The translations under genes and the position numbers were made by a program. This document shows, one piece after another, positions 9,922-31,650 of a DNA stretch of 64,000 bases. Below the pieces are notes generated by a model. The model was not told the origin of the DNA. It ran no database searches and was given only the letters and a program-made list of their open reading frames with translations. The stretch spans positions 2,951,838 to 3,015,837 of the forward strand of contig OZ253555.1 of NCBI GenBank assembly GCA_965262725.1. Reading direction: 5' to 3'. Positions within the stretch are counted from its first letter, which is position 1. Each line of letters starts with the position of its first letter. The stretch is from Dehalococcoidia bacterium (GTDB lineage Bacteria > Chloroflexota > Dehalococcoidia > UBA2979).

Positions 9922-9922
9922 C

Positions 9923-10866: not shown

Positions 10867-10884
10867 AGACGCGGCATCCGGCCG

Positions 10885-12240: not shown

Positions 12241-12351
12241 TCCGCGGGTGACCGGGGGCGCCGGTCCCGGCCCTCCGCCACCGCCGTTGTCGACGCCCGC
12301 GGCAGCGAAGTAAGGTGAATCTCTCACCCGCCCGGGAGATTTGAGAGTTTC

Positions 12352-13470: not shown

Positions 13471-13472
13471 GC

Positions 13473-14447: not shown

Positions 14448-14642
14448 ACGGCGAGGGAGAGGCTACCGCGGCCTCCGCCAACTGCGGGCGCATCTCTCCG
14501 GTCCGAGCGGAGTCCGCGGCAGCCCCGGATCCTCGAGATGGGGGGACCTCCGAACGGACCGGGGCGGGGCTGGTCGCCGCGCTCGGGTCCTCCCTACACT
14601 CTGCGGGGCCGTGATCAGCGGCCGCGCGAAGGAGGCAAGACG

Positions 14643-15434
14643 GTGGCCGCGCAGGCGGTGAGCGAGCTCACCCCCCTCGGCGACGGCGCACCGATCCGCG
14701 CCGTCGTCTTCGACGCCTACGGCACGATCTTCCGCTTCTCGGACACGGAGCACCGCCTGCTGGTCGCCTCGCTCCTGGCGGAGCAGGGCCTGGAAGCGGA
14801 TCTCGACGCCTTCGTCGAGAGCCTGACGAAGTCCTTCCACCGCGTCGGCCCCTGGGCGGAGCACACGCGCAAGGACGGCTCGGCCGACCGCGACCAGATG
14901 GTTGCGGGCCCCCTCCCCCCGTGGATCTCAACGTGGGAGATCTGGCGGCGCCAGTACGAGCACGCATTCCGGGAGCACGGCCTCGCAGGGAACGCCGCGG
15001 CCGCCGCCGATCGGCAGCGCCTCCTCCTCACCGAGGCCGACCCGTACGCGGACGCGCACGCCGCAATCGAGGACCTCGCGGCGCGGGGGCTGCTGGTGGG
15101 TCTTCTCTCCAACGCGGACGATGACTTCCTGCAGAGCGCGATCACGCGCGCGAGGCTCCGGTTCTCGGTGATCGCGTCGTCCGAGTCGCTCGGCGCCTAC
15201 AAACCCCACCGGGCGGTCTTCGACGCGCTCTGCGAGCGCCTCCGCTGCGCCCCCGCCGAGGTGCTCTACGTCGGCGACTCGCCGCATGCCGACGTCCACG
15301 GCGCGAAGCATGCAGGGCTTCGCGCGGCGTGGGTGCGGCGCGCCACGGTTTCCGAGTACCCGGAGGGCATCCCGCGGGCCGACGTCGAGCTCGGCTCGCT
15401 GCGCGAACTGTCGGACCTTGGGGGCCTCGCGTAG
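14643..15434 (+). CDS. HAD-family hydrolase
   Basis: GTG start preceded by GAAGGAGG. Motifs VVFDAYGTIF (motif I), LLSNADDDF, YKP, YVGDSPHADVHGAKHAGL. Confidence 0.75.
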   Translation: MAAQAVSELTPLGDGAPIRAVVFDAYGTIFRFSDTEHRLLVASLLAEQGLEADLDAFVESLTKSFHRVGPWAEHTRKDGSADRDQMVAGPLPPWISTWEIWRRQYEHAFREHGLAGNAAAAADRQRLLLTEADPYADAHAAIEDLAARGLLVGLLSNADDDFLQSAITRARLRFSVIASSESLGAYKPHRAVFDALCERLRCAPAEVLYVGDSPHADVHGAKHAGLRAAWVRRATVSEYPEGIPRADVELGSLRELSDLGGLA

Positions 15435-15502
15435 GCACGCGGCGGCGCGGCCAGACACGCTGCCGGGGCGATTCGGGGAGGCGAGGCGAGGCGTGCGTGT
15501 CG

Positions 15503-15532
15503 TTGCGACGCACTTGTGCCTGCCCCTATACT
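15503..15532 (+). promoter_or_regulatory. sigma-70-like promoter candidate TTGCGA-N18-TATACT upstream of dnaN
   Basis: Read directly from the sequence; it is followed by a perfect 10-bp palindrome GCGCATGCGC at about 15552..15561. Confidence 0.4.
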
Positions 15533-15586
15533 CAGGGATGCTCGCGAAAGCGCGCATGCGCATGAGCGAATAGACCGAGGCGCACG

Positions 15587-16723
15587 ATGCGACTCAGTTG
15601 CCAGCAGGAAGATCTCAACCGGGGGCTCTCTGCGGTCTCCCGAGCGATTCCGGCGCGCACGACACTGCCCATCACGAATCACATCCTGCTCGAGGCGAAG
15701 GACGACTCGATCACGCTCAGCGCGACCGACGCCGAGACGATCGCGATCACGTACACGATCCGCGGGGAGGTCCTCTCGCCGGGATCGCTGACCCTCCCCT
15801 CACGGCTGCTCTCGGAGTTTGTCGGTTCACTCCCTGCGTCGCGGATCGACATGACACTCGCCGAGCGCTCGCGGCAGGTGCACCTCTCGTGCTCGAGGAA
15901 CGAGGCGTCTATCGGCGGCATGGACCCCGAGGAGTTCCCTCCGATCCCGCCGGTCTCCGACCTGCCGGCACTTCGCATCCCGGCGGCAGGGCTGCGGCGC
16001 GCCCTTAGCCAGGTGGTCTTCGCTGCCGCCACCGACGACGCGCGTCCCGTGTTGACGGGCGTCCAGCTCGCCATCAGCGGCAAGAAGATCTTGCTCGCTG
16101 CGGCCGACGGCTTCCGGCTCTCCGTCCATACCCTCGATCTTCCCGAGGAGACCGAGGAGCGCACGGCGATCGTGCCAGCCAGAGCCCTCGGCGAGTTGCT
16201 GAGGTTGCTGCCGGAGGCCGGCGACGAGACGGTGGCCGTGACCTTCAACACGTCTGGCCGTCAGGCGCAGTTCGATCTCGGTCATGCCACCCTCGTCGCG
16301 CAGCTCATCGAGGGCACGTTCCCGAACTACGAGCAGCTGATCCCGCCGAACCACAACACGCGCACCGAGGTGCTGCTGGACGAGTTCATGCGTGAGGCGC
16401 GCATCGCCTCCATCTTCGCGCGAGACGGCTCGGGCATCGTGCGGCTGGTCGCCAGCGAGGGGGAGCACGGGCAACCGGGGCGCCTCCTGATCAGCGCCCG
16501 CGCCGAGGAGATCGGCACGAATGAGGGCGAGATCGATGGAATAGTCGAGGGCGACGAGGCGAAGATCGCCTTCAACGGCCGCTACCTCACTGACATTCTG
16601 CAGGTGGTCGGCACGGAGCGGGTCGCGCTCGAGACCTCATCCCCATCCAGCCCCGGCGTGTTCCGCCCGGTCGGCGACGACTCCTTCGTCCACGTCGTCA
16701 TGCCTATGTTCGTGCAATGGTGA
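15587..16723 (+). CDS. dnaN: DNA polymerase III beta subunit (sliding clamp), not in an oriC (dnaA-recF-gyrB) context
   Basis: Three-domain beta-clamp, 378 aa (MRLSCQQEDLNRGLSAVSRAIPARTTLPITNHILLEAKDDSITL...). The gene is visibly lower in GC than its flanks. Confidence 0.9.
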   Translation: MRLSCQQEDLNRGLSAVSRAIPARTTLPITNHILLEAKDDSITLSATDAETIAITYTIRGEVLSPGSLTLPSRLLSEFVGSLPASRIDMTLAERSRQVHLSCSRNEASIGGMDPEEFPPIPPVSDLPALRIPAAGLRRALSQVVFAAATDDARPVLTGVQLAISGKKILLAAADGFRLSVHTLDLPEETEERTAIVPARALGELLRLLPEAGDETVAVTFNTSGRQAQFDLGHATLVAQLIEGTFPNYEQLIPPNHNTRTEVLLDEFMREARIASIFARDGSGIVRLVASEGEHGQPGRLLISARAEEIGTNEGEIDGIVEGDEAKIAFNGRYLTDILQVVGTERVALETSSPSSPGVFRPVGDDSFVHVVMPMFVQW

Positions 16724-17178
16724 TTATGTCTAGTAGACTGGCTTGCCCCCCACTGCCCGACGACTCACGAACCGCCCCCCCCCGCCCTGGGTATGACCGC
16801 GCCGACGACCCGAGCGCCCGCGATGTGCGGGGCGCTGGCCGCGTACGCCTGGGCAATGAGGTTCGCGCAGAGACAGACAGCGCCAGCACCGCTTTCGAAT
16901 GGTCGGATCGGGGTGGAGGCCCGCCCCGGAAGGACGCAGAGCAGCGTCCACCAGCATGCTGTAGAGGCGGAAGCCCCAAGCCCGCGACAGATATCCGGCG
17001 ACAGCTTCTTCTGACAGCGGACCAGTACGCCCAATCGGCGTCCCAACCGAGGTCGTAGAGCAGGGCCTAGCCGTGCAAGTCGGCCGGGTCTCGGGGCTGG
17101 CCGAGCGCCTTGAGGAGGGCCGGGTCCTGCGAGACTCTCTTCGTGCTCCCAGCCGCTGGATTGATGTAGACTTACATC

Positions 17179-17430
17179 ATGAGTCATCGCACGCAGATCA
17201 CGCTGACCGATGAGCAATATGCGCGGCTACGCGAGGAGTCCCGGCGCTCCGGCCTCGGCCTCGCGGAACTCGTTCGGCGGGCGCTTGAGCGCAACTACGG
17301 GACGTCTTCCAGTGCGGAGGTGCTGAGCGCCCTCGACGCGAGCTTCGACTCCTGGGCGGACCGCGACTTTGACGGCGCGAGCTACGTCGAGGGGCTTCGT
17401 CGCGGCATGTCTCGCCGACGGGCGGGCTGA
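17179..17430 (+). CDS. vapB: ribbon-helix-helix (CopG/VapB-like) antitoxin
   Basis: 83 aa, RHH N-terminus ITLTDEQYARLREESRRSGLGLAELVRRAL. ATGA overlap with the downstream PIN gene. Confidence 0.8.
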   Translation: MSHRTQITLTDEQYARLREESRRSGLGLAELVRRALERNYGTSSSAEVLSALDASFDSWADRDFDGASYVEGLRRGMSRRRAG

Positions 17431-17810
17431 TGGCGATCATCGTCGACACGTCGGTGCTGATCGACCACCTGCGAGGTGAGGAAGCGGCTCGCGCAGCGCT
17501 TCGCGGCGCCACGGCCGCCGGCGAACGGCTCGCGGCTTCCGTACTCACCAAAGTCGAGGTGCTGGCCGGGATGCGAGTCCCGGAGGAGCGCGCCACGCGT
17601 CGCCTGTTGGACAGCCTCGACTGGATCGAAGTCGATGACGAGCTCGCCGAACGCGCCGGCGTGCTGGCCAACCGGTTTCTGCCGTCGCACCCCGGGGTCG
17701 ATCCGGTCGACTACGTGATTGCCGCGACCGCCGAACTCCTCGACGCCCGGCTCTGGACCCGCAACGTCCGCCACTTCCCGATGTTCCCGCAGCTCGAATC
17801 TCCGTACTGA
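17430..17810 (+). CDS. vapC: PIN-domain toxin
   Basis: MAIIVDTSVLIDHL start and conserved acidic residues; 126 aa. Confidence 0.85.
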   Translation: MAIIVDTSVLIDHLRGEEAARAALRGATAAGERLAASVLTKVEVLAGMRVPEERATRRLLDSLDWIEVDDELAERAGVLANRFLPSHPGVDPVDYVIAATAELLDARLWTRNVRHFPMFPQLESPY

Positions 17811-17872
17811 GACGTTGTTCGGCGATCCCCCGAGTCTGCCCGTTGAGGCGTGCTCGTGTGGACCGAGGAGGT

Positions 17873-18398
17873 TCAAGAGGCGCAGATCTTCGAAACGGGG
17901 GAAGAAGCACAGCTCACCTCCGATCCCGCGTGCTCCGGGCGCTTCTCCGCTCCCTGGTAGCCGGCATCGCCCCACACCTCCGTCTCGCCGCCGTGTAACA
18001 GGCGATGCGCCTCGGTCACGTCGGAGACGTTCGCCGCCGTCGTGCTCACGCTGTGGACCAGCCCCGTCCGCGCATCCGTGCCGGTGTGCAGCTTCATCCC
18101 GAAGGACCACTGCCGGCCCTTCCTGGTCTGATGCATCTCGGGCTCGCGCTCATGCTCCTGATTCTTCGTCGATGACGGCGCGCTGATGGTCATGGAGTCC
18201 ACGATCGTCCCCTCGCGCACCAGCAGACCGCGCGCTGCGAGGTGCGTGTTGATCGTGGCAAACAGCGCCGTTCCCAACTGGTGACGCTCCACCGCGGACG
18301 GAATAATGGCACCGCCCAGGGTGCCAGTTCTCCCCGCGAGGTCCGGCGGCTCTACTGAAGTAATGAGGGCGAGTTCCTCCTCAGCCCGTCTGCGGCAC
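17873..18398 (-). pseudogene. IS5-family (DDE) transposase internal fragment, truncated at both ends with no start codon
   Basis: LVREGTIVDSMTISAPSSTKNQ...EPEMHQTRKGRQWSFGMKLHTGTDARTGLVHSVSTTAANVSDV...GDAGYQG aligns to the middle of IS5 InsH. The open frame begins right after the ATPase gene's TAG stop and contains no ATG/GTG/TTG. Confidence 0.75.
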
Positions 18399-18400
18399 GC

Positions 18401-19579
18401 CTACGAGCGGCTGCTCTCCGATCGCTCCAGCACCCCGGCCAGTCCCGAGAGCGACACGACCTCGCAGTCGCTGCGGAGCTGACTCTCGGCGCCGCCGTAC
18501 ACCACGGTCTTGCCGGACACGCCCGGAAGCAGGTCGCCAACGCGGTTGATCGAGGTGAAGTAGTCGGAAGCCACCGTGGCACCGGACCTAATCTCGATCG
18601 CGCTGACGCCGCTCCCGGTCTCGTAGAGGAGGTCGCACTCCAGTCCCCTCGAGTCGCGGAAGAAGGAGAGGTTGGGCTGGAGCCCCTGATTGAAGCGATG
18701 CTTCAACGCTTCCGCCACGACCACGTTTTCGAAGAGCGCTCCGCGCAGCGGATGCGTCGCCACCTGCTGCGGGCTCTCGATGCCGAGCAGATAGCTGGCC
18801 AGCCCCACGTCATAGAAGTAGAGCTTCGGCGACTTGACCAGGCGCTTGCGGATGTTGGCGTGGAACGGCGGCAGCTGGAAGACGACATAGCTCGTCTCGA
18901 GGACTGTGACCCACTCACGCGCGGTGGTGTGGGATACGCCCGCGTCGGACCCGACCGCGCTCAGGTTGAGTAGTTGGCCGACGCGTCCCGCGCAGAGACG
19001 CACGAAGAGCCTGAACGCCGAGAGGTTGCGGATCCCACCCAGCCGGCGCACGTCGCGCTCGACGTAGGTCTCGAAGTAGTCGCCGAGCGCCTGCCGCGGC
19101 TCCAGCCCCTGGTCGTGAATCCGGGGGTAGAACCCCGAGTAGATGATGTCGTCTATCGCCTCGCTCGCACCCGTGCGGCGTCGCTCCGCGAGAGAGAACG
19201 GCAGCAGGCGGAGCAGCGCGGTGCGCCCGGCCAGCGACTGGCTGATGGCGTCGGAGAGCCGGAACTGCTCGCTGCCGATGAGCACGAACAGGCTATTCCG
19301 TCCGCGTTCGTCGGCGAGGACCTGGAGGTACGACAGGAGCTGGGGAACATGCTGGACCTCATCGATGATCGCGCCCTCGCCCAGTTGCGCGAGGAAGCCG
19401 CGGGGGTCCGACTCGGCGAAGTCGCGCTGGTCGGGCGCCTCTAGATTGGCGTACTGCAGGTCGGGGAAGGCCGCACGGCAGAGGGTCGTCTTGCCGGACT
19501 GGCGCGGACCGGTCACGGTCACGAAGGGGTATTGTCCGAACAGCGCGGTCAGCCGGTCCGTGATGTCACGCTCGATCAT
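18401..19579 (-). CDS. AAA+ ATPase (AAA_14 + DUF4143 family)
   Basis: Walker A GPRQSGKTT. DUF4143-like C-terminal half. Likely start MIERDITDRLT; the track ORF begins at a TTG inside the upstream palindrome. Confidence 0.8.
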   Translation of the reverse strand: MIERDITDRLTALFGQYPFVTVTGPRQSGKTTLCRAAFPDLQYANLEAPDQRDFAESDPRGFLAQLGEGAIIDEVQHVPQLLSYLQVLADERGRNSLFVLIGSEQFRLSDAISQSLAGRTALLRLLPFSLAERRRTGASEAIDDIIYSGFYPRIHDQGLEPRQALGDYFETYVERDVRRLGGIRNLSAFRLFVRLCAGRVGQLLNLSAVGSDAGVSHTTAREWVTVLETSYVVFQLPPFHANIRKRLVKSPKLYFYDVGLASYLLGIESPQQVATHPLRGALFENVVVAEALKHRFNQGLQPNLSFFRDSRGLECDLLYETGSGVSAIEIRSGATVASDYFTSINRVGDLLPGVSGKTVVYGGAESQLRSDCEVVSLSGLAGVLERSESSRS

Positions 19580-19604
19580 AGCGTCACAGTATGGGCGATG
19601 CCGT

Positions 19605-19633
19605 ACAAACTGCAAGTACTACTTGCAGTTTGT
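19605..19633. promoter_or_regulatory. perfect 29-bp palindrome ACAAACTGCAAGTA-C-TACTTGCAGTTTGT, about 25 nt upstream of the ATPase start; candidate operator
   Basis: Perfect 14-bp arms, and AT-rich in a 72% GC background. Confidence 0.6.
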
Positions 19634-19668
19634 CCCACCGGTGAGTGTCGCAGCCCGAGGGCGCGCGC

Positions 19669-19800
19669 ATGCTCTACGACAACCTCTCCGTCGCGGCGCC
19701 TCGCTGCGCGAGCTGGTCGAACAACCCGCAGGAGCGCCTGAACAAGGAGATCCGCCGGCGCACCACAGAGATCGCCTCATCGTGAGTCTTCCGGAGCCAG
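19669..19800 (+). pseudogene. IS256-family transposase C-terminal remnant, frameshifted
   Basis: MLYDNLSVAAPRCASWSNNPQERLNKEIRRRT matches the IS256 C-terminal signature (TNPIERLNKEIKRRT...VVGIFPN). The expected continuation appears in another frame (IVSLPEPGLLRGAAG). Confidence 0.45.
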
Positions 19801-19803
19801 GGC

Positions 19804-20072
19804 TACTGAGGGGCGCTGCGGGCAACCGCTTCGCGCGGAAGCGCGGCCTCCCAGAGCTCGATGTAGGGCACCAGTGGCGGCGACCGCTCCGCGAGCCACG
19901 CGTGCGGCGCAAGCTCGGACTCGGAGGAGAAGTTGGCGGTGATTTCAGTCCAGCGGCCGTCGATGCGCTCCCACTGTGCGTAGGTGTACGAGATGGCGCC
20001 GCTGGGCTGGAACGCGGCGGGTGGCGTGCCGTAAACGAGCTCGCCGGTCTCGATCTTGTGAATCGCCAGGAT
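19804..20072 (-). pseudogene. 5'-truncated gene fragment of unknown family, interrupted by the IS21 left end
   Basis: About 90 codons of open frame with strong GC3 bias (ILAIHKIETGELVYGTPPAAFQPSGAISYTYAQWERIDGRWTEITANF...) but no start codon; it abuts the IS21 terminus. Confidence 0.35.
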
Positions 20073-20114
20073 CTATAGACCAGCAAACGGCGAGATCGCC
20101 AGGGTCTATGTGCC
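20062..20114 (+). repeat. two imperfect 20-bp direct repeats (ATCGCCAGGRTCTATRKRCC) at the IS21 left terminus
   Basis: 20062..20081 and 20095..20114 are 16/20 identical. Multiple terminal sub-repeats are typical of IS21-family ends. Confidence 0.5.
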
Positions 20115-20213
20115 ACTTCGCCAAGGTCATTGAGCCACCCCTCCGGGGGGTCTGACCACTCGGGCCGCCGGTACGGCCACCATCGCCTGCATCCCCAGCG
20201 GAGGGGAGCAGCG

Positions 20214-21794
20214 ATGGCCTACCGGGAGGTACACGGGGTGGAGATCCAGGAGATCATTCGTCGCTGGCAGGCGGGGCTCAGCCAGCGCCGCATCGCCAGC
20301 GGGATGGGGTTGTCGCGTCAGACGGTCCGCCGCTACATCGACGCGGCCGAAGCGGCCGGCCTCACACCTGACGGTCCCGAGCCGAGTGAGGAGCAGCTCG
20401 CCGCGCTGGCGACGCTGAGCCTCTCCGGCCCGCGGCAGGTCGAGGCGCCGAGCGAGGAGCTGCTCTCGCCCTGGGCGGAGCAGATCGAGCGCTGGCTTGA
20501 GACCGACCGCCTGCAACTGACGCGCATCCAGGAGCTCCTCGCCGGACGAGGCTGCGAGGTCTCCTACACCACGCTGCGGCGTTTCATCCGGCGCCGCGGC
20601 TGGCGCCACCGGCTGCCGTCGACCGTGCGCATGGACGACGGGCCGCCGGGCGAGGTGGCGGAGATGGACTTCGGCCGCCTCGGCTTCATCCGGGACCCCG
20701 AGAGCGGCCGCCGGCGCGCGGTGTGGGCGCTGGTCGTCGTCTGGCGCTACTCACGCCACTGCTTTGTGTGGCCCACCACCAGCCAGAAGCTGGACGCTGT
20801 GATCGAGGGCCTGGAGGAGGCCTGGGCCTTCTTCGGGGGAGTGCCCCGCTACCTCGTCATCGATAACTTCCCGGCCGCCGTCGCCGGGGCCGACGCGCTG
20901 CACCCGCGCTTCACGCGGGGCTTCCTCGAGTACGCCCGCCACCGCGGCTTCATCACCGACCCCGCGCGCGTGCGTCATCCCCGCGACAAGCCGCGCGTCG
21001 AGCGCAGCATCCCCTACGTGCGCGAGCGCCTCTTCAAGGGCGGCGACTTCCGGGACGTCGTCGACCTGCGCTCCGCCGCCCGCAGCTGGTGCCTGGAGGT
21101 GGCGGGACAGCGCATCCACGGCACGACACGCCGGCGCCCGCTCGAGGTCTTCCGGGAGGAGGAGCTCCCTCTCCTCGCTCCCTGGGACGGCGAGCCCTAC
21201 GAGGTCCCCGACTGGCGGACCGCCACGGTCCATCCCGACCACCACATCGCCTGCCAGTACGCGCTGTACTCGGTGCCGTCCACGGCCTGCCCGCCCCGCC
21301 AGAAGGTCGAGGTGCAGCTCGGCTCGAAGCTGGTGCGCATCTACCACCGCGGTCAGCTCATCAAGGTCCACCCGCGCCAGCGCCGGGGCGGCCGGGCCAC
21401 CGACCCGAACGACTACCCGGCCGAGCTCACCCCCTACACCAGGCGGGCGCCCGACTGGATACAGCGCCGCGCCGCCGAGCTGGGGGAGGCCGTGGGCGCC
21501 TACGCCGAGCGTCTCTTCGAGGGCTCCCTGCCCTGGGCGAAGCTGCGGCAGGGCCACAAGCTGCTGCGCCTCGCCGAGCGCTACTCCCCGGACCGCCTCG
21601 ACGCCGCCTGCCGCCGCGCGCTCGAGGTCGACCTCATCGACGTGCGCCGCCTCGAGCGCATCCTCGTCGAGGCCCTCGACCAGGAGAGCACCCCAGACCA
21701 GCCCGAGCTGCCGCCGCCTCCGGGGCGCTTCGCCCACTCGGGCTCCGTCTTCGCACAGTCCCGCACGCAGACCCCGACAGGAGCACCACGATGA
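20214..21794 (+). CDS. istA: IS21-family transposase
   Basis: Internal ATG of ORF 20130..21794 (MAYREVHGVEIQEIIRRWQAGLSQRRIA...). N-terminal HTH and DDE integrase core. Confidence 0.9.
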   Translation: MAYREVHGVEIQEIIRRWQAGLSQRRIASGMGLSRQTVRRYIDAAEAAGLTPDGPEPSEEQLAALATLSLSGPRQVEAPSEELLSPWAEQIERWLETDRLQLTRIQELLAGRGCEVSYTTLRRFIRRRGWRHRLPSTVRMDDGPPGEVAEMDFGRLGFIRDPESGRRRAVWALVVVWRYSRHCFVWPTTSQKLDAVIEGLEEAWAFFGGVPRYLVIDNFPAAVAGADALHPRFTRGFLEYARHRGFITDPARVRHPRDKPRVERSIPYVRERLFKGGDFRDVVDLRSAARSWCLEVAGQRIHGTTRRRPLEVFREEELPLLAPWDGEPYEVPDWRTATVHPDHHIACQYALYSVPSTACPPRQKVEVQLGSKLVRIYHRGQLIKVHPRQRRGGRATDPNDYPAELTPYTRRAPDWIQRRAAELGEAVGAYAERLFEGSLPWAKLRQGHKLLRLAERYSPDRLDAACRRALEVDLIDVRRLERILVEALDQESTPDQPELPPPPGRFAHSGSVFAQSRTQTPTGAPR

Positions 21795-22564
21795 CCGCCA
21801 CCACCTCAGACCTCCGTCCGCTGCTCAAGCGCCTCAAGCTCGGCCGTATGCTCGACACCCTGCCCGAGCGCATCGCCCTCGCGCGGCGCGACCACCTCGA
21901 CTACGCGGACTTCCTGCAGATCCTGCTCGTCGACGAGGTGAGCCGCCGCGACCACGGGCGGTTGGAGCTGCGCCTGCGCCAGGCCGGCTTCGAGCAGCTC
22001 TGCCGCCTCGAGGACTTCGACTGGGCGGCCGCCATCCGGCTCGACCGCCGCCTGCTCGACGCCGCCTTCTCGCTGCACTTCCTCGATCGCCGCGAGCACG
22101 TCCTGCTCGTCGGCCCCGTCGGCGTCGGCAAGAGCTTCTTAGCCCAGGCGCTCGGCTACTCAGCCGTCCGCTCCGGACGCAGCGTCCGCTTCGCCCCGGC
22201 CGACCACTACTTCCGCGAGATGGCGCAGGCCCGCGTCGACCACTCGGCCGAGAAGGTCTTTCGAAGCTTCCTCGCGCCCGACCTGCTCATCCTCGACGAC
22301 CTCGGGCTCCATCGCCTCAGCGCGCAGCAGTCCATCGACCTCTACGAGCTGGTCATCGGGCGCCACCGCAGCTCCAGCTTCGTCATCACCTCGAACCGCG
22401 CCGTAGAGGAATGGCTGGGTCTCTTCGACGACCCGATCCTCGGCAACAGCGCCCTCGACCGCCTCGCCAACGCCAGCTACCAGATCGTGATCGAGGGCGA
22501 TAGCTACCGCCAGCGGCTCTCGCCGCACCGCGCCCTGCTCGAGGCGCAGACGGGAGGTGATTGA
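21791..22564 (+). CDS. istB: IS21-family helper ATPase
   Basis: Walker A GPVGVGKSF and Walker B LLILDDLG; 257 aa. Confidence 0.9.
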   Translation: MTATTSDLRPLLKRLKLGRMLDTLPERIALARRDHLDYADFLQILLVDEVSRRDHGRLELRLRQAGFEQLCRLEDFDWAAAIRLDRRLLDAAFSLHFLDRREHVLLVGPVGVGKSFLAQALGYSAVRSGRSVRFAPADHYFREMAQARVDHSAEKVFRSFLAPDLLILDDLGLHRLSAQQSIDLYELVIGRHRSSSFVITSNRAVEEWLGLFDDPILGNSALDRLANASYQIVIEGDSYRQRLSPHRALLEAQTGGD

Positions 22565-22653
22565 CGCGCTAGTGTCCTGATTCGTAATAGCGACAGATAA
22601 CGGGTATGGTGGCACAGCGGGGTTTTGCCCCATGGGGCAGACTCTGGAGTGTC

Positions 22654-23706
22654 ATGAGCACCCGAATCGGACGGCCGACGGTCGCGATCGTCCTGAGCGA
22701 CGAGGAGCGTGAGACGCTGGAGCGGTGGGCGCGCCGGCCGACATCGGCCCAGGCGCTGGCGCTGCGCTGTCGCATCGTCCTGGCAGCGGCCGAGGGGACA
22801 TCGAATAAAGCGATCGCCGCGGCGCTCGATTGCCATCCGGTCACCGTCGGCAAGTGGCGCCGGCGCTTTGCGCAGGGGCGGCTCGATGGGCTACAGGATG
22901 AGCCGCGCCCCGGGGCGCCGCGCACGATCGCCGATGCACAGGTGGAAGCGGTGATCGTCACGACGCTGGAGGAGCAGCCTCCCAACGCGACGCACTGGTC
23001 GACCCGATCGATGGCAGCCGCGGTCGGGATGTCGCAGTCGGCGATCTTCAGGATCTGGCGCGCCTTCGGCCTGAAGCCGCACCTCGTGGAGAGCTTCAAG
23101 CTGTCGCCCGACCCGCAGTTCATCGACAAGGTGCGCGACGTGGCCGGGCTCTATCTCAACCCGCCCGACGCGGCGGTTGTGCTGTGCGTGGACGAGAAGA
23201 CCCAGATCCAGGCACTCGACCGCACCGCGCCGACGGTGCCGATGATGCCCGGCGTCCCCGCCCGCCAGACGCACGACTACATCCGTCACGGCACGACGAA
23301 CCTCTACGCGGCGCTCGATGTCGCCTCGGGATGCGTGATCACGGAGATGACCCCCCGGCACCGGGCTCGGGAGTTCCAGCAGTTCCTCGCCCTCATCGAC
23401 CAAAGCGTTCCCCGTGAGCTGGCGGTGCATGTCGTGCTCGACAACGTCTCCACGCACCGCACGCCCGCCATCCAGCGCTGGCTCCAGCGCCATCCCCGCT
23501 TCACCTTCCATTTCACGCCGACCTACAGCTCCTGGATGAACCTCGTGGAGCGCTGGTTTGCAGAGCTCACCAGCAAGTGGCTCCGGCGCGGCACGCACCA
23601 TAGCGTCCCTGATCTGATCCGCTCAGTGGAGATGTGGGTCGCCAGCTGGAACGAGAATCCGAGGCCCTTCATCTGGCACAAGTCCGCGGACCAGATCCTT
23701 GAGTAG
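22654..23706 (+). CDS. IS630-family (Tc1/mariner-like) transposase; the last ~16 native codons are displaced by the intron, and the current TAG stop lies inside the intron 3' end
   Basis: N-terminal HTH and DDE region (VLCVDEKTQIQAL...VVLDNVSTH). Removing 23703..26638 in silico restores ...ADQILDNLTGYLNRISNSGH* ending in the right IR. Confidence 0.85.
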   Translation: MSTRIGRPTVAIVLSDEERETLERWARRPTSAQALALRCRIVLAAAEGTSNKAIAAALDCHPVTVGKWRRRFAQGRLDGLQDEPRPGAPRTIADAQVEAVIVTTLEEQPPNATHWSTRSMAAAVGMSQSAIFRIWRAFGLKPHLVESFKLSPDPQFIDKVRDVAGLYLNPPDAAVVLCVDEKTQIQALDRTAPTVPMMPGVPARQTHDYIRHGTTNLYAALDVASGCVITEMTPRHRAREFQQFLALIDQSVPRELAVHVVLDNVSTHRTPAIQRWLQRHPRFTFHFTPTYSSWMNLVERWFAELTSKWLRRGTHHSVPDLIRSVEMWVASWNENPRPFIWHKSADQILE

Positions 23707-23866
23707 GGTCAGGGGCTGGCGCGGTGCGAGCCGTAGGCGGTGGCGCATATTGCCAGGCCGGTTTCCCGGTGGCGCCCATCTCCACAGCCGTAGCATCGTC
23801 CGTCTCCAGCCCCTGCCGCCTCGAACCGGACGTGAGGTTTTCCCTCATCCGGCTCACCGATGCCCT

Positions 23867-24660
23867 TCACCGGGCGGCATGCGGGGTGCCCCGCCACGGT
23901 CGATATGGCCGTGGTGCCACGACGCGCTGTCCAGCTAGCGAGATGAGCCCCAGACGGTCGGCGACGGGAAACGGGTGCCCGCGATGGCGTCGCCGCCAAC
24001 GCAACCGCTTCCCCAGCCAGAGTTTGAGTCTCCACATGGCAAACCAGTGCAGGACGTCGAACGCCCTCGCCGAGTTGCCGTAGCGGAAGTAGCTCATCCA
24101 GCCGCGGAGGTAGCGATTGACTTCCTCCACGACCTGCCGGGGACTCAGCAGCAGACGCAACCGCGCCGTGATTTCACGGATGCGGTCCCGCGCCCGCTGC
24201 ATCGCTCGCCGTGAGGGCCAGCGTGCGAGGAACTGGATATTCTTGTTGCGCTTCGCACGTACCCAGCGATGCTCGAAGCCGAGGAACTCCAGCCCCTCGC
24301 CTCCCTCCCGCAGGTGCACGATGCGCGTCTTCTCCGCCTTGAGCTCCAGTCCGAGCTCACCCAGCAGGTCACGCAGCAGGGCCAACGCCCGCTCCGCTTC
24401 CTCCCGGCTCCGGCAGAGCACCACGAGGTCATCCGCATAGCGCACCAGCACGCCATCACCCTTCGCCTCCCAGTCCCGGTCCAACCGGTGCAGGTAGACA
24501 TTGGCCAGCAGCGGGGACATCACCCCGCCCTGCGGCGTACCCGTCGCGCTGTGCTGCACGACCCCCGACTCCATCACACCGGCACGCAGCATCGCCCGTA
24601 CCAGCTTCAGGAGATTGCGGTCGCATATCCGTTCCTCGACGGCCGTCATCAGACGGTCGT
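23867..24660 (-). CDS. group II intron-encoded reverse transcriptase/maturase, 3' segment (RT domains 3-7 + X domain)
   Basis: HDRLMTAVEERICDRNLLKLV, SPLLANVYLHRLD, VRYADDLVVLC (YADD), X domain RYLRGWMSYFRYGNS. The N-terminal 70 aa of track ORF 23867..24853 are translated intron RNA. Confidence 0.85.
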
Positions 24661-25522
24661 GTAGGGTCAGGGGCTGGCGCGGTGCGAGCCGTAGGCGGTG
24701 GCGCATCAGTTCCAAGCCGGTTTCCCGGTGGTGCCCAACTCCACGGCCATAGCAGCGTCCGTCTCCAGCCCCTGCCACATCGAACCGGACGTGAGGTTCT
24801 CCCTCATCCGGCTCACCGATGCCCTTCACCAGATGGCATGCAGCGCTCCCCACAACGTGGGTCGTGCCTTGGCCAGCCGGTACAGCATGTGCGGAGAGCC
24901 TCGAACCCTACCAAGTGGTTGCTAGCCCCGAGGGGCACTCACCAGTCCACACCCCCAGCAACATGCACGGACAAAGTAGGGGTCCTTCCCATCACCGGCG
25001 GTTATGTTGTCCGTCCGGCTCCAGCGGTACTACGACCCCCTCCGCCACCCTTCCGGCTGGCTGTCCACTTCCCGGCTCTGACCGGTTATAGGACGCCTCG
25101 CTCCGACGCCCTCTCACAGGGTGCCGGGCCGGGGAGGGCTTCTCCGGTTCCCGTCGCTACCTTCCGTACGTTCCACGTCCCATACGCCGGGAGGTTTCTT
25201 GAGGCTGCATTCCAGGATCTTCACCTCGTCCATGGCCTTCGCCCTGACCACCCGGGCTCGGCTCCTCCTTGGTCCTGTCAATAGACAGGCGAGTCTCACG
25301 GCGCGGCAGACTTCGCGTCATGCTGCGGACCGCACGTTTGCTCCCCCTCATAGGGCTCTTGACGTCGGGCTTCGACGCAGACCGTTTCCCGTCCACGCCG
25401 CCGACCTGCTAACGGGCCTCCTGACAGTTACCCGTGCCGGACTCTCACCGGCTGGCAGCAACGAGCATGTCTCCGGACCGGTCACGTCATCACGTCACCA
25501 CCCCTTCGACTTCCGGACGCAC
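24661..25522 (-). mobile_element. nested ORF-less group II intron (about 862 bp; 5' GTGCG ... 3' CCCTAC) inside the RT gene of the outer intron
   Basis: About 90% identical to the outer intron's domains I-III and V-VI. Removing it in silico rejoins ...FESIP|HDRLMTAVEE..., the canonical RT domain-3 sequence. Confidence 0.75.
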
Positions 25523-26087
25523 GCGGTATCGACTCGAAACACGAGGCGATGTCCGTCTCCACTACCCACCGCCTGCCCCGCCACGCCTCGTCAATGAGGA
25601 CCTGCAGGGCGTCATGGGCCGAACGCTTCGGGCGGAAGCCGAAGCTGCATGGCAGGAAGTCGGCCTCGAAGACCGGCTCCGTCACGAGCTTCAGCGACGC
25701 CTGCACGATGCGGTCGCGGACCGAAGGAATCGAGAGCGGGCGCTCTTCCGACCGACCGGGCTTGGGTATCCAGACCCGGCGGCTCGGCTGCACCCGGTAT
25801 CTTCCCTCCTTCAGTTCCGTGGCCAGTTCATCCAGCAGGCGCTCCACGCCGTAGCGCTCGACCTCGGCGAGCGTGACGCCGTCGATACCGGCTGCGCCGC
25901 GATTGCGACGCACCTGCTCCCACGCGCGCTCCAGAATGTCTCTGCGATAAACCTTGTCGTAGAGCGCATGAAAGCGTCTATTGGGGTCGGCCTTGGCCGC
26001 CCGGTAAAGCGTGCGTTGTAGTGTTCGGACCTTGTCTTGGATGGAGTTAGCCGCTTGGGCACTCACCGATTCATCCCTACTCCCCAC
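25523..26087 (-). CDS. group II intron-encoded reverse transcriptase/maturase, 5' segment (RT domains 0-3), interrupted after FESIP by the nested intron
   Basis: KVRTLQRTLYRAAKADPNRRFHALYDKVYRRDILERAWEQVRRNRGAAGIDGVT...RRVWIPKPGRSEERPLSIPSVRDRIVQ...FRPKRSAHDAL. Confidence 0.85.
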
Positions 26088-26830
26088 GCGTGAGCAAAGC
26101 AGGGGTCCTTCCCATCACCGGCGGTTGTGTTGTCCGTCCGGCTCAAGCGGTACTACGACCCCCTCCGTCACCCTTCCGGCTAGCTGCCCACTTCCCGGCT
26201 TTGACCGGTTATAGGGCACCTCGCTCCGACACCATCTCGCAGGGTGCCGGGCCGGGGAGGGCTTCTCCCGTTCCCGTCGCTACCTTCCAAACGTTCCACG
26301 CCCCTTACGCCGGGAGGTTCCTTGAGGCTGCAGCGCAACGCGCATTCAGGATCTTCACCTCGTCCATGGCCTTCGCCCTGAATTGCCGGGCTCGGCTCCT
26401 CCACTATCCGTTAACGACGCGGCAGGCTTCGCTTGATGCTGCGGACCGCCTGGTTGCTCCCCCTGATAGGGCTCTTGACGTCGGGCTTCGACGTGGACCG
26501 TTTCCCGTCCGCGCCGCCGACCTGCTAACGGGCCTCCTGACAGTTACCCGTGCCGGACTCGCACCGGCTGGCAACGACGAGCATGTCTCCAGACCGGTTA
26601 CGTCATCACGTCACCCGCCCTTCGACTTCGGGACACACCAACCTCACCGGATATCTCAATCGCATTTCCAATTCAGGACACTAGCAGGGTGCTGAAGAAG
26701 CTCCTTCCGGGGGCCTCGGAGCGGTGCCGGGCGGCTTGAGAGGCCACGTCCGGCTTCGTGATCGCCGTCTCCTGACCTGCCCCCGGCGGCCTCGGAGGGC
26801 TCCTGGACCGGCCGTAGGGCGCAGTGCGCC

Positions 26831-27538
26831 CTACGCCGTGGCAGCCTCGAGCCTGGCCATGCGCACCAGGTTGTAGGCGGCGGCGGTGAGCTCCAGCCAG
26901 CAGCGGTTGCGCTCGCGGCCCACGAAGCGCAGCTTGCGCCCGCCGCCCACGGTCTTCATCCAGCCGAAGACCTGCTCCACGATCGTGCGTCGCTTCTGAC
27001 TCTGCCTGTAGCCGCGATGCCGCGTGGTGCGCCCGTCCACGGCGCTGCGGCGGCGGCGATCGTGCTGCGCCACGCCGCGCCCGCGCAGTTCCGCCACGAA
27101 GTCGCGCGTGTCGTAGCCGCGGTCGGCGCCCAGCGTCCCGCAGCCGCTCACGCTGCGCTCCAGCATCGTGACCGCCGCCTCGCGCTCGGCGTACCCGTTC
27201 GCCTCGGTCAGCTCCAGGTCCAGCACCAGACCATGACGGTTCTCGGTGAGCAGGTGGCCCATGTAGCTCAGTCTCGCCGTCTGCCCCGACCCTTTCGTGT
27301 ACAGCCGCGCCTGCGGGTCCGTGCCGGAACTATGCGTATCGCGGCGGCGGCGCCGCCCCCGGAAGTCGACCTCCGGGTTGCGCCCGCCCGGGGGTGTCCT
27401 GCTCGTCGCGCGGGCGGTAGCTCTTGAGCGAGGCCCAGGCCTCCAGCAGCGTCCCGTCCACGGTGAAGTGGTCGGCGGAGAGCAGCCGACGCCGCCTGGC
27501 CTCGGCCACCACCTCGGCGAAGAAGGCGCGCGCGACAT
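26831..27538 (-). CDS. IS5/IS1182-family transposase, C-terminal DDE ORF in a different frame (frameshifted or programmed)
   Basis: DPQARLYTKGSGQTARLSYMGHLLTENRHGLVLD...GADRGYD...RTIVEQVFGWMKTVGGGRKLRF. Confidence 0.75.
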   Translation of the reverse strand: MSRAPSSPRWWPRPGGVGCSPPTTSPWTGRCWRPGPRSRATARATSRTPPGGRNPEVDFRGRRRRRDTHSSGTDPQARLYTKGSGQTARLSYMGHLLTENRHGLVLDLELTEANGYAEREAAVTMLERSVSGCGTLGADRGYDTRDFVAELRGRGVAQHDRRRRSAVDGRTTRHRGYRQSQKRRTIVEQVFGWMKTVGGGRKLRFVGRERNRCWLELTAAAYNLVRMARLEAATA

Positions 27539-27893
27539 CGGCAGCGAGCAGGCGCTCGCGATTCTTCGAGAAGCTGGAGGCGTCGAACGGCTCGTCTGAG
27601 ATGTTGAGGTCGAGGAACCACTTGAACAGCAGGTCGTAGCGCAGCCGCTCGCAGAACTGGCGCTCGCTGCGGATCGAGTAGAGCGCGATCAGCAGGCTCG
27701 CCTTGAGCAGGTGCTCGGGCGGGATCGAGGGCCGGCCGCTCTTGCTGTACATCGTGCCGAACAGCGGTGAGAGCCGCTGCAGCGCGGAATCGACGATCGG
27801 TTTGATGCGGCGGATCGGGTGGTCGTCCGGGATGAAGGCGTCCGGCGTCACCGCCAGCAACATGTTGGTCTGACGCTCAGCGTCGCCTCGCAT
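27330..27893 (-). CDS. IS5/IS1182-family transposase, N-terminal ORF (DUF772-like); the frame breaks near a C/G homopolymer
   Basis: FIPDDHPIRRIKPIVDSALQRLSPLFGTMYSKSGRPSIPPEHLLKASLL...KSYRPRDEQD. Confidence 0.75.
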   Translation of the reverse strand: MRGDAERQTNMLLAVTPDAFIPDDHPIRRIKPIVDSALQRLSPLFGTMYSKSGRPSIPPEHLLKASLLIALYSIRSERQFCERLRYDLLFKWFLDLNISDEPFDASSFSKNRERLLAADVARAFFAEVVAEARRRRLLSADHFTVDGTLLEAWASLKSYRPRDEQDTPGRAQPGGRLPGAAPPPRYA

Positions 27894-27965
27894 GGGGCGC
27901 CTCCAGGCTACGCCCCCGCCGCCTTCGCTATCCTGCCAGACGGCTGACCCTTTTTCAGCACCCTG

Positions 27966-31180: not shown

Positions 31181-31182
31181 GG

Positions 31183-31650
31183 TCACCTGGCACCTCCTGC
31201 CGCGCTTCGGACGGCGTTGATGATGTGCTCGTAACCGGTGCAGCGGCAGAAGTTGCCGTCCAGACCCCGGCGTATCTCGTCCTCCGAGGGGTTCGGGTGG
31301 CGCTCGAGCAGGTCGGCGCCCGACATGATCATGCCCGGCGTGCAGTACCCGCACTGGAGCCCGTGCTCGTCCCAGAACGCCTGCTGCAGCGGGTGCATCT
31401 CACCTTCCGCCGCGAGTCCCTCGATGGTGGTGATCGCGACGCCGTCGGCCTGCACCGCGAAGACGGTGCAGGCCTTGGCGGACGCGCCATCCACCAGCAC
31501 GGTGCACGCGCCGCACTGGCTGGTGTCGCAGCCCACATGCGTGCCGGTCAGGTTCAACTCCTCCCGCAGGAGATGGACCAACAGCATGCGGGGCTCGACC
31601 TCCAGTTCGTGAAGCCGTCCGTTCACGGTCACCGCAATCGGTACGGTCAT
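31183..31650 (-). CDS. coxS: molybdenum-hydroxylase small (2Fe-2S)2 subunit
   Basis: [11 protein letters not shown] and CGYCTPG cysteine motifs. Confidence 0.9.

What the first reader, a model, noticed from the sequence alone, without database searches (positions are those of the whole stretch)
15435..27965. About 12.5 kb lower-GC accessory island packed with nested mobile elements between a HAD hydrolase gene and the cox operon
From dnaN to the IS1182-like element the GC content visibly drops and gene content switches to mobile and defence-type functions. These are an extra dnaN, vapBC, an IS5 fragment, a DUF4143 AAA ATPase, an IS256 fragment, a truncated gene fragment, IS21, IS630 with the group II twintron, and the IS1182-like element.

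Several insertions are hierarchical. IS630 lies 4 nt after the istB stop and so removes the IS21 right end. The intron lies inside IS630, and a second intron lies inside the first. The IS1182-like element abuts IS630 at a CTAG.

This is an insertion hotspot or IS graveyard and a likely site of ongoing genome plasticity.
Basis: seen in the sequence. Interest (0 to 1): 0.5.

Follow-up and report, generated by a model that had tools for sequence, protein, structure and literature searches.

The report
Strain-variable transposon pile-up beside dnaN
The space between the DNA-clamp gene dnaN and a carbon-monoxide-dehydrogenase operon in a soil Dehalococcoidia bacterium is a real, still-changing dumping ground for transposons that insert at the rare sequence CTAG, but every part is of a known kind and dnaN itself is an ordinary core gene, not cargo.

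Summary
These are vapBC, an IS5 fragment, a DUF4143 ATPase, an IS256 remnant, a 5'-cut small ORF, IS21 lacking its last 88 nt, and IS630 carrying an intron-in-intron. A 1281-bp IS sits on the coxM stop codon.

Three points need correcting.
- dnaN is not island cargo. It is the syntenic, most conserved gene of a block shared with 14 related MAG loci, and its low GC comes from codon positions 1 and 2.
- The "IS1182-like" element fits the IS5 family better.
- Low GC does not mark the right border.

Against about 12 assemblies that are 98-99.9% identical, the locus shows at least 8 architectures. The 6.6 kb of IS21 plus IS630/introns is unique to this window. A sister lineage supplies the empty site: a single CTAG that is the coxM stop.

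All 19 distinct IS630/MITE ends examined lie at C-TA-G, and CTAG is 3-5 times under-represented. Stacking is therefore best explained by CTAG-targeting elements that regenerate their own target, in a harmless gap between convergent genes.

This is an ordinary kind of feature, well documented here.

The parts
14538..15434 (+). HAD-family hydrolase; core flanking gene
   Evidence: Pfam Hydrolase/HAD_2. Syntenic in 15 related loci.
15587..16723 (+). dnaN (DNA polymerase III beta clamp); core gene and left anchor, not island cargo
   Evidence: Three beta-clamp Pfam domains. TIGR00663 scores 270 bits against a cutoff of 138. It is 68-93% aa identical and syntenic in 14 other loci, more conserved than its neighbours. 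Homology stops at its stop codon. GC1/2/3 is 0.66/0.48/0.87.
16724..17178 (.). 455-nt spacer of unknown content. The lineage-specific sequence begins here. It holds CTAGs at 16730 and 17067.
   Evidence: No Pfam or PADLOC hit for its ORF. Absent downstream of dnaN in other species. Present in all 98-99.9% relatives.
17179..17810 (+). vapB (RHH, 17179-17430) and vapC (PIN, 17430-17810) toxin-antitoxin pair
   Evidence: Pfam RHH_1 and PIN. VapC is 100% conserved in conspecific assemblies.
17873..18400 (-). IS5-family transposase fragment (homology about 17915-18292), cut at both ends. Its inner break at 18291/18292 is where the sister lineage's cargo diverges.
   Evidence: Pfam DDE_Tnp_1 positions 4-101 of 200. 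NCBIfam IS5_4 positions 90-215 of 285. L106-L108 are collinear up to 18291 only.
18401..19615 (-). AAA_14 + DUF4143 ATPase; matches the untested defence candidate PDC-S01
   Evidence: Pfam. PADLOC PDC-S01, E = 5e-90. Replaced by other cargo in L106-L108.
19669..19785 (+). 38-codon remnant of an IS256-family transposase C-terminus
   Evidence: Translation ...SNNPQERLNKEIRRRT.... NCBIfam IS256, E = 0.0027, model positions 297-317. Weak support.
19803..20056 (-). Small ORF of unknown function (90 aa in sister strains), with its first ~7 codons cut off by IS21
   Evidence: Translations of the window and L089. No Pfam, PADLOC or plasmid match.
20057..22571 (+). IS21-family element: left end TGTGAATCG..., istA (ORF 20130-21794), istB (21791-22564). 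It lacks its last 88 nt.
   Evidence: Pfam and NCBIfam. Left terminal repeats. Six intact copies continue 88 nt past the CTAG to ...CTGGCGATCGACA. Those 88 nt are absent from the window. The identical IstB is found in 88 index blocks of the collection.
22572..26681 (+). IS630-family element, 1174 bp without the introns. TA duplications lie at 22570-22571 and 26682-26683. The transposase ORF 22606-23706 has lost its last 16 codons to the intron.
   Evidence: Inverted repeats. Pfam DDE_3. NCBIfam IS630 scores 271 bits on the reconstructed ORF. Intron-less copies 96-97% identical occur in L081, L091 and L099.
23703..26638 (-). Outer group II intron (2074 nt without the inner one), antisense to the IS630 transposase; 5' GUGUG, 3' ...CCCUAC
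   Evidence: Rfam D1-D4 and D5 hits. The RT is split as 26087-25482 and 24853-23867. Removing the inner intron in silico restores a 461-codon open reading frame, and the 446-aa query from it scores 408 bits on TIGR04416. The same intron, uninterrupted, lies at the same IS630 site in L096.
24661..25522 (-). Inner ORF-less group II intron (862 nt), inserted in the RT gene of the outer intron
   Evidence: 86-91% identical to the outer intron's 5' and 3' parts. Rfam D1-D4 scores 102.8 bits; D5 scores 37.5 bits. The empty site in L096 is exactly at 25523|24660. The EBS2-like loop differs from the outer intron and matches its own 5' exon.
26685..27965 (-). It has 16-nt inverted repeats and its transposase is split into two frames (27965-27330 and 27538-26831). 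It is flanked by a CTAG duplication.
   Evidence: Inverted repeats. Pfam DUF772 and DDE_Tnp_1. NCBIfam IS5_4 gives 115+125 bits against IS1182 128+89 bits with a cutoff of 270. The empty site with a single CTAG is in L106. It is found only at this locus.
27966..28811 (-). coxM (FAD subunit), the right anchor. Its stop codon is the TAG of CTAG 27966-27969.
   Evidence: Pfam FAD_binding_5 and CO_deh_flav_C. Sequence. L106 junction.

Best explanation
**What it is.** The stretch between the convergent 3' ends of dnaN (+) and the coxG-S-L-M operon (-) is a tolerated insertion zone. Mobile DNA accumulates and decays there. It was not acquired as one island.

**Ancestral state (shown by a sister lineage).**
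- The order was dnaN - spacer - vapBC - old IS5 remnant - variable cargo - ~135 nt - one CTAG.
- That CTAG holds the coxM stop codon.

**Order of events in the window's lineage.**
1. A 1281-bp IS5-family element inserted into that CTAG and duplicated it. This is shown.
2. IS630-family elements and their ~181-bp MITE derivatives insert at the TA of CTAG. They start with G and end with C, so they recreate CTAG on both sides. They then repeatedly hit the CTAGs at the ends of the IS5 element. This is shown by 19 of 19 ends and by several states at the same TA.
3. In this strain, IS21 landed in a small ORF.
4. An IS630 landed in the CTAG that lies 4-5 nt after the istB stop.
5. A group II intron retrohomed, antisense, into the conserved 3' end of the IS630 transposase gene.
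6. A related ORF-less intron retrohomed into that intron's RT gene.

**Inferred steps.**
- A ~420-nt deletion removed the IS21 right end, 148 nt of flank and a resident MITE. The likely route is recombination between the identical ~40-nt right ends of the IS630 and the MITE.
- CTAG is scarce in this 74% GC genome, so CTAG-dependent elements are funnelled into each other. That produces the stack.
For: **Empty sites and strain variation**
- L001/L089 lack window 20060-26638. They carry 148 nt plus a 182-bp MITE instead.
- The conspecific assemblies (L088/L093/L094, L089, L090, L091, L099/L104) and the sister lineage L106-L108 all differ here.
- L106 shows ...CGCTCGG CTAG CGGTCGACC. This is a single CTAG at the coxM stop with no IS.

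**CTAG targeting**
- All 19 distinct IS630/MITE ends are preceded by CTA.
- Junction sequences were read directly.
- CTAG occurs 29 times in 64 kb, against 80 (Markov) to 158 (mononucleotide) expected.
- IS630 is known to prefer the TA in CTAG and to duplicate TA (PMC2170065, citing Tenzen & Ohtsubo 1991).

**IS21**
- IS630 sits in the same IS21 CTAG, in the other orientation, in L081.
- IS21 is active. The identical IstB occurs in 88 index blocks of the collection, there are multiple copies per contig, and an independent insertion with a 7-bp duplication is seen in L091.

**Introns**
- The uninterrupted outer intron is in L096, at the same IS630 site.
- The reading frame is restored in silico.
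- The EBS2-like loops co-vary with their targets.

**Deletion**
- The 88 nt and the 148 nt are both absent from the window.
- The L090 MITE has the same right-end variant as the window's IS630.

**dnaN is core**
-.
Against: - The window's own arrangement (IS21 minus 88 nt joined to IS630 with the twintron) was not found in any other assembly. Its junctions lie in repeats of 2.5-4 kb, so an assembly short-cut cannot be excluded.
- The deletion route is inferred, not observed.
- L081 also lacks the IS21 right end beyond its IS630. This hints at a recurrent process I have not pinned down.
- CTAG scarcity as the cause of stacking is a correlation. IS21, the introns and the alternative cargo of the sister lineage do not depend on CTAG.
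- The split IS5 transposase could be a shared long-read homopolymer error.
- All comparison genomes are MAGs.
Confidence: 0.8

Rival explanations
1. A single horizontally acquired 12.5-kb low-GC genomic island, including an extra dnaN, inserted between HAD and the cox operon.
For: - Mean GC is 0.679 against 0.737 outside, with strong tetranucleotide deviation.
- The content is mobile and TA-type genes.
Against: - dnaN is syntenic and 68-93% identical in 14 other loci, and homology ends at its stop. Its GC3 is normal.
- The pieces have different histories.
  - 16724-18291 is shared with the 98% lineage.
  - 18292-20056 is shared only with 99.6-99.9% strains.
  - 20057-26684 is unique to the window.
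  - The IS5 element is absent in L106-L108.
- No integrase, no tRNA and no flanking direct repeats were seen.
- Low GC continues through cox to about 38 kb.
Confidence: 0.04
2. The window-specific part is an assembly artefact. IS21 (complete), the 148-nt flank and a MITE or IS630 really lie here. The assembler short-cut through an IS21::IS630 copy from elsewhere, which created the apparent loss of the IS21 right end.
For: - IS21 and IS630 are multi-copy in these populations.
- The arrangement is unique to the window.
- The source is probably a metagenome assembly like its relatives.
Against: - Both outer flanks are collinear with sister strains, so two switches inside repeats would be needed.
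- An independent contig (L081) shows the same IS21-CTAG-IS630 junction, also without the 88 nt.
- The twintron parts are each corroborated by independent contigs.
Confidence: 0.12
3. The locus is chiefly a selected defence/addiction-module hotspot. Cargo such as vapBC, the PDC-S01-like ATPase and the second PIN/MazE pair of the sister lineage is exchanged by recombination, and the IS elements are passengers or vehicles.
For: - vapBC is present.
- The ATPase matches PDC-S01 at E = 5e-90.
- L106-L108 carry a different cassette, with a PIN+MazE/PrlF pair, between the same flanks.
- Other species have serine-recombinase elements at the dnaN 3' end.
Against: - PDC-S01 is only a candidate, and no other defence match was found.
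- Most variation among the closest strains is IS/MITE movement, not cargo exchange.
- The cassette exchange is seen only once, between lineages.
- This reading is compatible with the main explanation rather than exclusive of it.
Confidence: 0.2

Closest known systems
IS630 of Shigella sonnei / the IS630-Tc1-mariner family (insertion at the TA of 5'-CTAG-3', with TA duplication)
   Same: - DDE_3 transposase with N-terminal HTH domains.
- Short terminal inverted repeats and a length of ~1.17 kb.
- TA duplication.
- Every end examined lies in C-TA-G (literature).
   Different: - The transposase ORF runs to the very end of the element and stops in the terminal CACTAG.
- The element has ~181-bp MITE derivatives in two orientations at one site.
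- It carries a group II intron.
- Transposition was not assayed.
RmInt1 group II intron in ISRm2011-2 (IS630-Tc1 family) of Sinorhizobium meliloti
   Same: - An En-less RT/maturase intron.
- Its natural homing site lies inside an IS630-family element, giving it many targets per genome (PMC4615759).
- The same site is occupied here in two independent IS630 copies, the window and L096.
   Different: - Relatedness of this intron to RmInt1 was not tested.
- The intron here lies antisense to the transposase gene, so it cannot be spliced from that mRNA.
- It truncates the transposase by 16 codons.
Bacterial and archaeal group II twintrons (Methanosarcina acetivorans, Thermosynechococcus, Trichodesmium), in which ORF-less introns home into related introns
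   Same: - An ORF-less derivative, ~86-91% identical, is inserted in the RT gene of a related intron.
- It sits in non-essential DNA.
- A related IEP is available in trans (review PMC4424553).
   Different: - Only two levels of nesting.
- The host is a Dehalococcoidia MAG.
- Splicing order and activity are untested.
IS5-family elements (NCBIfam transpos_IS5_4) with a 4-bp target duplication
   Same: - DUF772 + DDE_Tnp_1 transposase.
- 1.28 kb long with 16-nt inverted repeats.
- The 4-bp CTAG duplication is proven by an empty site.
   Different: - The transposase is split into two frames in all assemblies.
- It is single-copy.
- Its N-terminal part scores slightly higher on the IS1182 model.
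Nested IS clusters and flexible genomic islands in convergent intergenic regions
   Same: - IS-in-IS nesting and decayed fragments.
- Alternative cargo between conserved flanks.
- Strain-level polymorphism.
   Different: None in kind. The notable detail is that a single target word, CTAG, links the layers.

Membership tests
IS630 family | DDE_3-type transposase with HTH domains that passes the family model | tested here: met
   NCBIfam NF033545 scores 270.8 bits against a cutoff of 100 on the intron-free reconstruction. Pfam DDE_3 and HTH_32/29/23.
IS630 family | Terminal inverted repeats and TA target duplication, preferentially in CTAG | tested here: met
   Inverted repeats at 22568-22593 and 26660-26685. 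TA lies on both sides. 19 of 19 distinct ends follow CTA. An unoccupied CTAG is seen in intact IS21 copies.
IS21 family | istA (rve-type transposase) followed by istB (AAA+ helper) | tested here: met
   NF033546 scores 217 bits and NF038214 scores 212 bits, both above cutoff.
IS21 family | Both terminal inverted repeats (TGT...ACA) with a target duplication | tested here: not met
   The left end is present. The last 88 nt, including the right repeat, are absent. The copy is therefore defective. Intact relatives have both ends, and L091 shows a 7-bp duplication.
   NF033551 gives 127.7 + 88.7 bits on the two pieces, against a cutoff of 270. The piece covering the C-terminal part of the transposase scores higher on IS5_4.
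IS5 family | DUF772/DDE_Tnp_1 transposase that passes an IS5 model; short inverted repeats; small target duplication | tested here: met
   NF033581 gives 115.4 + 125.1 bits and covers model positions 3-285, against a cutoff of 140. 16-nt inverted repeats. The CTAG duplication is shown against a single CTAG in L106. Caveat: the score is a sum over two frames.
Mobile group II intron | RT/maturase IEP, domain V, GUGYG 5' end, and precise presence/absence at a target | tested here: met
   TIGR04416 scores 408 bits. Rfam D5 scores 41.5 bits and D1-D4 93.7 bits. Boundaries. Intron-less IS630 copies exist.
Twintron | One intron wholly inside another, with an uninterrupted version of the outer intron known | tested here: met
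   L096 carries the outer intron contiguous across 25523|24660. The reading frame is restored on removal.
Twintron | Sequential splicing of the inner intron and then the outer | not testable with these tools
   Needs RNA data.
VapBC type II toxin-antitoxin | Small RHH/AbrB-type antitoxin gene directly upstream of, and overlapping, a PIN toxin gene | tested here: met
   RHH_1 at 17179-17430 and PIN at 17430-17810. Activity was not tested.
Classical integrase-borne genomic island | Integrase/recombinase, attachment repeats, often a tRNA target | tested here: not met
   No integrase domain is present in 15435-27965. The only tRNA is at 4137. No flanking direct repeats were found.
Accessory (second) dnaN | A further dnaN elsewhere in the same genome, and patchy distribution of this copy | tested here: inconclusive
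   Patchy distribution is not met, because the gene is syntenic in all 15 related loci. Whether another dnaN exists elsewhere in the genome cannot be checked, because whole genomes are not readable here.
PDC-S01 defence candidate | Match to the PADLOC model; demonstrated anti-phage activity | tested here: inconclusive
   The sequence match is E = 5e-90. Activity was not tested here.

The most novel reading that the evidence does not exclude
**Self-seeding insertion trap**
- The dnaN 3' flank may act as a lineage-wide landing zone in these Dehalococcoidia.
- In a genome where CTAG is strongly depleted, an IS5-type element duplicates CTAG.
- IS630-type elements and MITEs regenerate CTAG at both ends.
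- Together these would make one stop-codon CTAG grow into a multi-element stack, and would generate at least 8 architectures within one ~98% ANI group.

**Two side possibilities not excluded**
- MITE|IS5#2|IS630 may move as a composite unit.
- Large serine recombinases may use the dnaN 3' end as an attachment site in other species.
Probability: 0.5. Interest if true: 0.4.

Novelty: new member of a known kind. Interest (0 to 1): 0.3.

Why it matters
**For annotation**
- It corrects a likely mis-call. dnaN here is the core clamp gene, not cargo.
- The locus is not a single acquired island.

**For mobile-DNA biology**
- It is a compact natural example of target-word-driven nesting. The chain runs CTAG -> IS5 duplication -> IS630/MITE -> group II intron -> ORF-less intron.
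- Empty sites for most layers (IS5#1, IS630 in the IS21 CTAG, both introns) come from uncultured soil Dehalococcoidia.
- It could serve as a strain marker.
- It could be used to measure IS and intron activity in long-read metagenomes.

It does not reveal a new kind of element or mechanism.

Tried and rejected
**Look-ups that found nothing**
- Exact-protein look-ups of the window's HAD and of the truncated IS630 transposase found nothing. The window's own contig could not be located, so its arrangement could not be confirmed independently.
- The 90-aa ORF has no Pfam, PADLOC or plasmid tblastn match. It remains unidentified.
- No second copy of any island element exists elsewhere in the 64-kb window, apart from the two introns.
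- The IS21 right end was searched for in the window and is absent.

**Analyses that did not settle**
- IS5#2 of L091 is only 28% identical to the window's IS5 element, so it could not be used to place the frameshift.
- EBS1 could not be assigned with confidence. The AACCUC candidate fits only the outer intron, and a CAACC/GCGGU loop candidate fits both exons at -5..-1. Only the EBS2-like covariation is reported.

**Ideas rejected or left untested**
- Rejected: that IS21 simply ends 8 nt after istB. This was suggested by blastn ending at 22572. The intact copies share a further 88 nt.

Full report
**1. Observation**

The window is about 74% GC. In 15435-27965 the GC is 0.679, against 0.737 +/- 0.026 for 1-kb windows elsewhere. 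Tetranucleotide distance from the bulk reaches z = 5-15 and is highest over the introns.

The drop is real but does not delimit one block.
- IS21 is 0.714.
- The cox operon just outside the stated end is 0.697.
- Deviation (z>2) persists to about 38 kb.
- dnaN is 0.670, but only because of codon positions 1 and 2 (0.66/0.48). Its GC3 of 0.87 is normal, and its orthologues in other species show the same pattern.

**2. Anatomy**

Domain and family scans, Rfam, repeats and direct reading give the following order.

| Coordinates | Strand | Feature |
|---|---|---|
| 14538-15434 | + | HAD hydrolase |
| 15587-16723 | + | dnaN |
| 16724-17178 | . | 455-nt spacer |
| 17179-17810 | + | vapBC |
| within 17873-18400 | - | IS5-family fragment, model positions 90-215 of 285 |
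| 18401-19615 | - | AAA_14/DUF4143 ATPase (PADLOC PDC-S01, E = 5e-90) |
| 19669-19785 | + | 38-codon IS256 remnant (weak) |
| 19803-20056 | - | small ORF, 5' end cut |
| 20057-22571 | + | IS21 (istA, istB) |
| 22569-22572 | . | CTAG |
| 22572-26681 | + | IS630 |
| 26681-26684 | . | CTAG |
| 26685-27965 | - | 1281-bp IS with 16-nt inverted repeats and a split DUF772/DDE_Tnp_1 transposase |
| 27966-27969 | . | CTAG, whose TAG is the coxM stop |
| 27966-32288 | - | coxM-L-S-G |

Inside IS630 lies a group II intron at 23703-26638(-).
- Its 5' end is GUGUG and its 3' end is CCCUAC.
- It is antisense to the transposase and removes the transposase's last 16 codons.
- The intact transposase ORF would stop in the terminal CACTAG.

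Inside that intron's RT gene lies an 862-nt ORF-less relative at 24661-25522(-).
- Deleting it in silico restores a 461-codon RT/maturase open reading frame.
- A 446-aa query taken from that frame scores 408 bits on TIGR04416.

**3. dnaN is not cargo**

A scan of one genome per species with the HAD protein returned 15 Dehalococcoidia/Chloroflexota loci.
- In all of them dnaN follows HAD, within a conserved ribD-ribBA-ribH-dinB-MerR-like-hemC-HAD-dnaN block.
- DnaN is 68-93% identical and is the best conserved gene of the block.
- Nucleotide and protein homology stop exactly at the dnaN stop codon.
- The gene passes TIGR00663 with 270 bits against a cutoff of 138.

Nothing supports 'extra'. Whether another copy exists elsewhere in the genome cannot be tested here.

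**4. Close relatives show at least 8 architectures**

Exact-protein look-ups and blastn give the following.

*L001/L089 (OZ245405.1) and L090, 99.6-99.7% identical*
- They lack window 20060-26638.
- They carry instead the rest of the small ORF, 148 nt, and a ~181-bp IS630-derived MITE in the + orientation.
- The MITEs in L089 and L090 are of two different types.

*L088, L093 and L094*
- The L090-type MITE is present in the opposite orientation at the same TA.

*L091*
- A complete IS21 in the opposite orientation sits at window position 19834, with a 7-bp duplication.
- It is followed by MITE | a second, intact IS5-family element | an intron-less IS630(-) | the resident IS5 element.

*L099/L104*
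- MITE | IS5#2 | IS630 are stacked on the other CTAG, between the resident IS5 element and coxM.

*L106, L107 and L108, a ~98% sister lineage*
- They are collinear with window 5547-18291.
- They then carry 3.7-5.3 kb of different cargo: a PIN+MazE/PrlF pair, small ORFs, ERG4 fragments and an extra IS in L108. The three differ among themselves.
- They then share ~135 nt of the '148-nt' segment, followed by a single CTAG that is the coxM stop.

The junction in L106 reads ...CGCTCGG CTAG CGGTCGACC. It is the empty site for the resident IS5 element, proving a 4-bp CTAG duplication. It is also the empty site for everything stacked on that element.

The window's own arrangement was found in no other assembly. 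In window coordinates, the segment that varies within the 98% group is 18292-27965.

**5. Activity of the elements**

*IS21*
- The identical IstB is on record in 88 index blocks of the collection.
- These include several copies per contig and a plasmid/ICE-like contig.
- Six intact copies define the full element. It runs 88 nt past the CTAG to ...CTGGCGATCGACA.
- Those 88 nt are absent from the window, so the window's copy is defective.

*IS630*
- Intron-less copies 96-97% identical occur in L081, L091 and L099.
- In L081 one sits in the same IS21 CTAG in the other orientation.

*Resident IS5 element*
- It is single-copy, and its transposase is split in all assemblies.
- It is a true 'graveyard' member.

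*Outer intron*
- An uninterrupted copy with a 100% identical IEP lies at the same site of another, internally deleted IS630 in L096.
- This gives the exact empty site for the inner intron at 25523|24660.
- The one D1 loop where the two introns differ is complementary to each intron's own 5' exon. For the outer intron, CGGAUA pairs with UAUCCG. For the inner intron, GACUCG pairs with CGAGUC.

**6. Mechanism**

*Shown*
- All 19 distinct IS630/MITE ends in the fetched loci are preceded by CTA, so each insertion is at C-TA-G.
- The element starts with G and ends with C, so each insertion recreates CTAG on both sides.
- The IS5 element duplicates CTAG.
- CTAG occurs 29 times in 64 kb, against 80-158 expected.
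- The interval lies between convergent 3' ends, dnaN on the + strand and cox on the - strand, so insertions break no promoter or gene.

*Inferred*
- The scarcity of CTAG funnels CTAG-dependent elements into each other's ends, and this builds the stack.
- The loss of the IS21 right end, the 148 nt and the MITE followed IS630 insertion into the IS21 CTAG.
- The likely route is recombination between the IS630 right end and the identical ~40-nt right end of a resident L090-type MITE.

*Alternatives*
- Recombination between two full IS630 copies.
- An assembly short-cut.

**7. Other species**

Directly downstream of dnaN, several other species carry mobile or mobile-like genes.
- L012 and L015 have a large serine recombinase gene overlapping the dnaN 3' end.
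- L003 has an IS3.
- L008 has an IS256-family fragment.
- L010 has an HTH protein.
- L002 has a DUF2442 protein.
- L013 has an IS5-like element, and L004, L010 and L012 have extra DNA, between HAD and dnaN.

Five other loci have ordinary genes there. The dnaN flank is therefore recurrently, but not universally, invaded.

**8. Comparison with what is known**

Each layer has precedent.
- IS630 prefers the TA in CTAG (PMC2170065, citing Tenzen & Ohtsubo 1991).
- RmInt1 uses an IS630-family element as its natural homing site (PMC4615759).
- Bacterial and archaeal twintrons exist, and ORF-less introns depend on related IEPs (PMC4424553, PMC4649490, PMC2882425).
- The 'IS1182-like' label fails the IS1182 model. 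The element fits IS5_4 over the whole model length.

**9. Verdict**

The interpretation as an active insertion hotspot is right. The borders, the status of dnaN, one IS label and the 'single low-GC island' framing are wrong.

This is a well-resolved but ordinary IS and retroelement nest. Novelty: a new member of a known kind. Interest is about 0.3.

Noticed in passing
L015:2433-4058(-) and L012:16596-18173(-): In two other species a large serine recombinase gene (Resolvase + Recombinase + Zn_ribbon_recom) overlaps the 3' end of dnaN on the opposite strand. This suggests integrative elements that use the dnaN 3' end as an attachment site.
   Followed up: partly
L091:15390-18085; L099:235-2925; L081:4782-7472: The trio MITE | intact IS5-family element (IS5#2, 354 aa) | IS630 recurs in three places, in different orientations and with different flanks. 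IS630-type inverted repeats sit at both outer ends, so it may move as a composite transposon.
   Followed up: partly
window 32222-32387 (CTAG at 32382); L089:18665-19136: The sister genome OZ245405.1 has an extra ~470-nt DUF772-containing insertion between coxG and the ATG22-like MFS gene. It is next to one of the window's rare CTAGs, making a second polymorphic site.
   Followed up: no
window 1-64000: CTAG is strongly depleted, at 29 occurrences against 80 (Markov) to 158 (mononucleotide) expected. Nine of the 29 lie in 15435-27969.
   Followed up: yes
window 27966-38000: The cox operon, an ATG22-like MFS gene, an SH3_3/3D-domain protein and a TrkH gene also have lowish GC (0.70-0.71) and deviant tetranucleotides (z = 2-6). 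None of them is found near dnaN in other species. The wider region may be a lineage-specific rearrangement or an older acquisition.
   Followed up: partly
L082-L084 (ERZ28763718 ctg32063, 118 kb): Three copies of the same IS21 sit on one 118-kb contig. The contig also carries ArdC, Rad52, primase, relaxase-like and tyrosine-integrase genes, so it is a likely plasmid or ICE that could shuttle the IS between hosts.
   Followed up: no
window 4137-4232: ARAGORN calls a tRNA-Ala(CGC) that is 96 nt long. This is unusually long for a bacterial tRNA-Ala and may mean an insertion, an intron or an over-call.
   Followed up: no
L088/L103 (ERZ25071132 ctg820293, 6.98 Mb): One conspecific contig is 6.98 Mb, whereas the other chromosome-scale contigs of the species are 2.6-3.7 Mb. 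It may be a concatenated or chimeric assembly.
   Followed up: no
L096:1604-3238 and 6179-9338: The uninterrupted copy of the intron lies between a SIR2_2 gene and a Type ISP restriction-modification-like helicase gene, next to another IS21. This is another mobile/defence neighbourhood.
   Followed up: no
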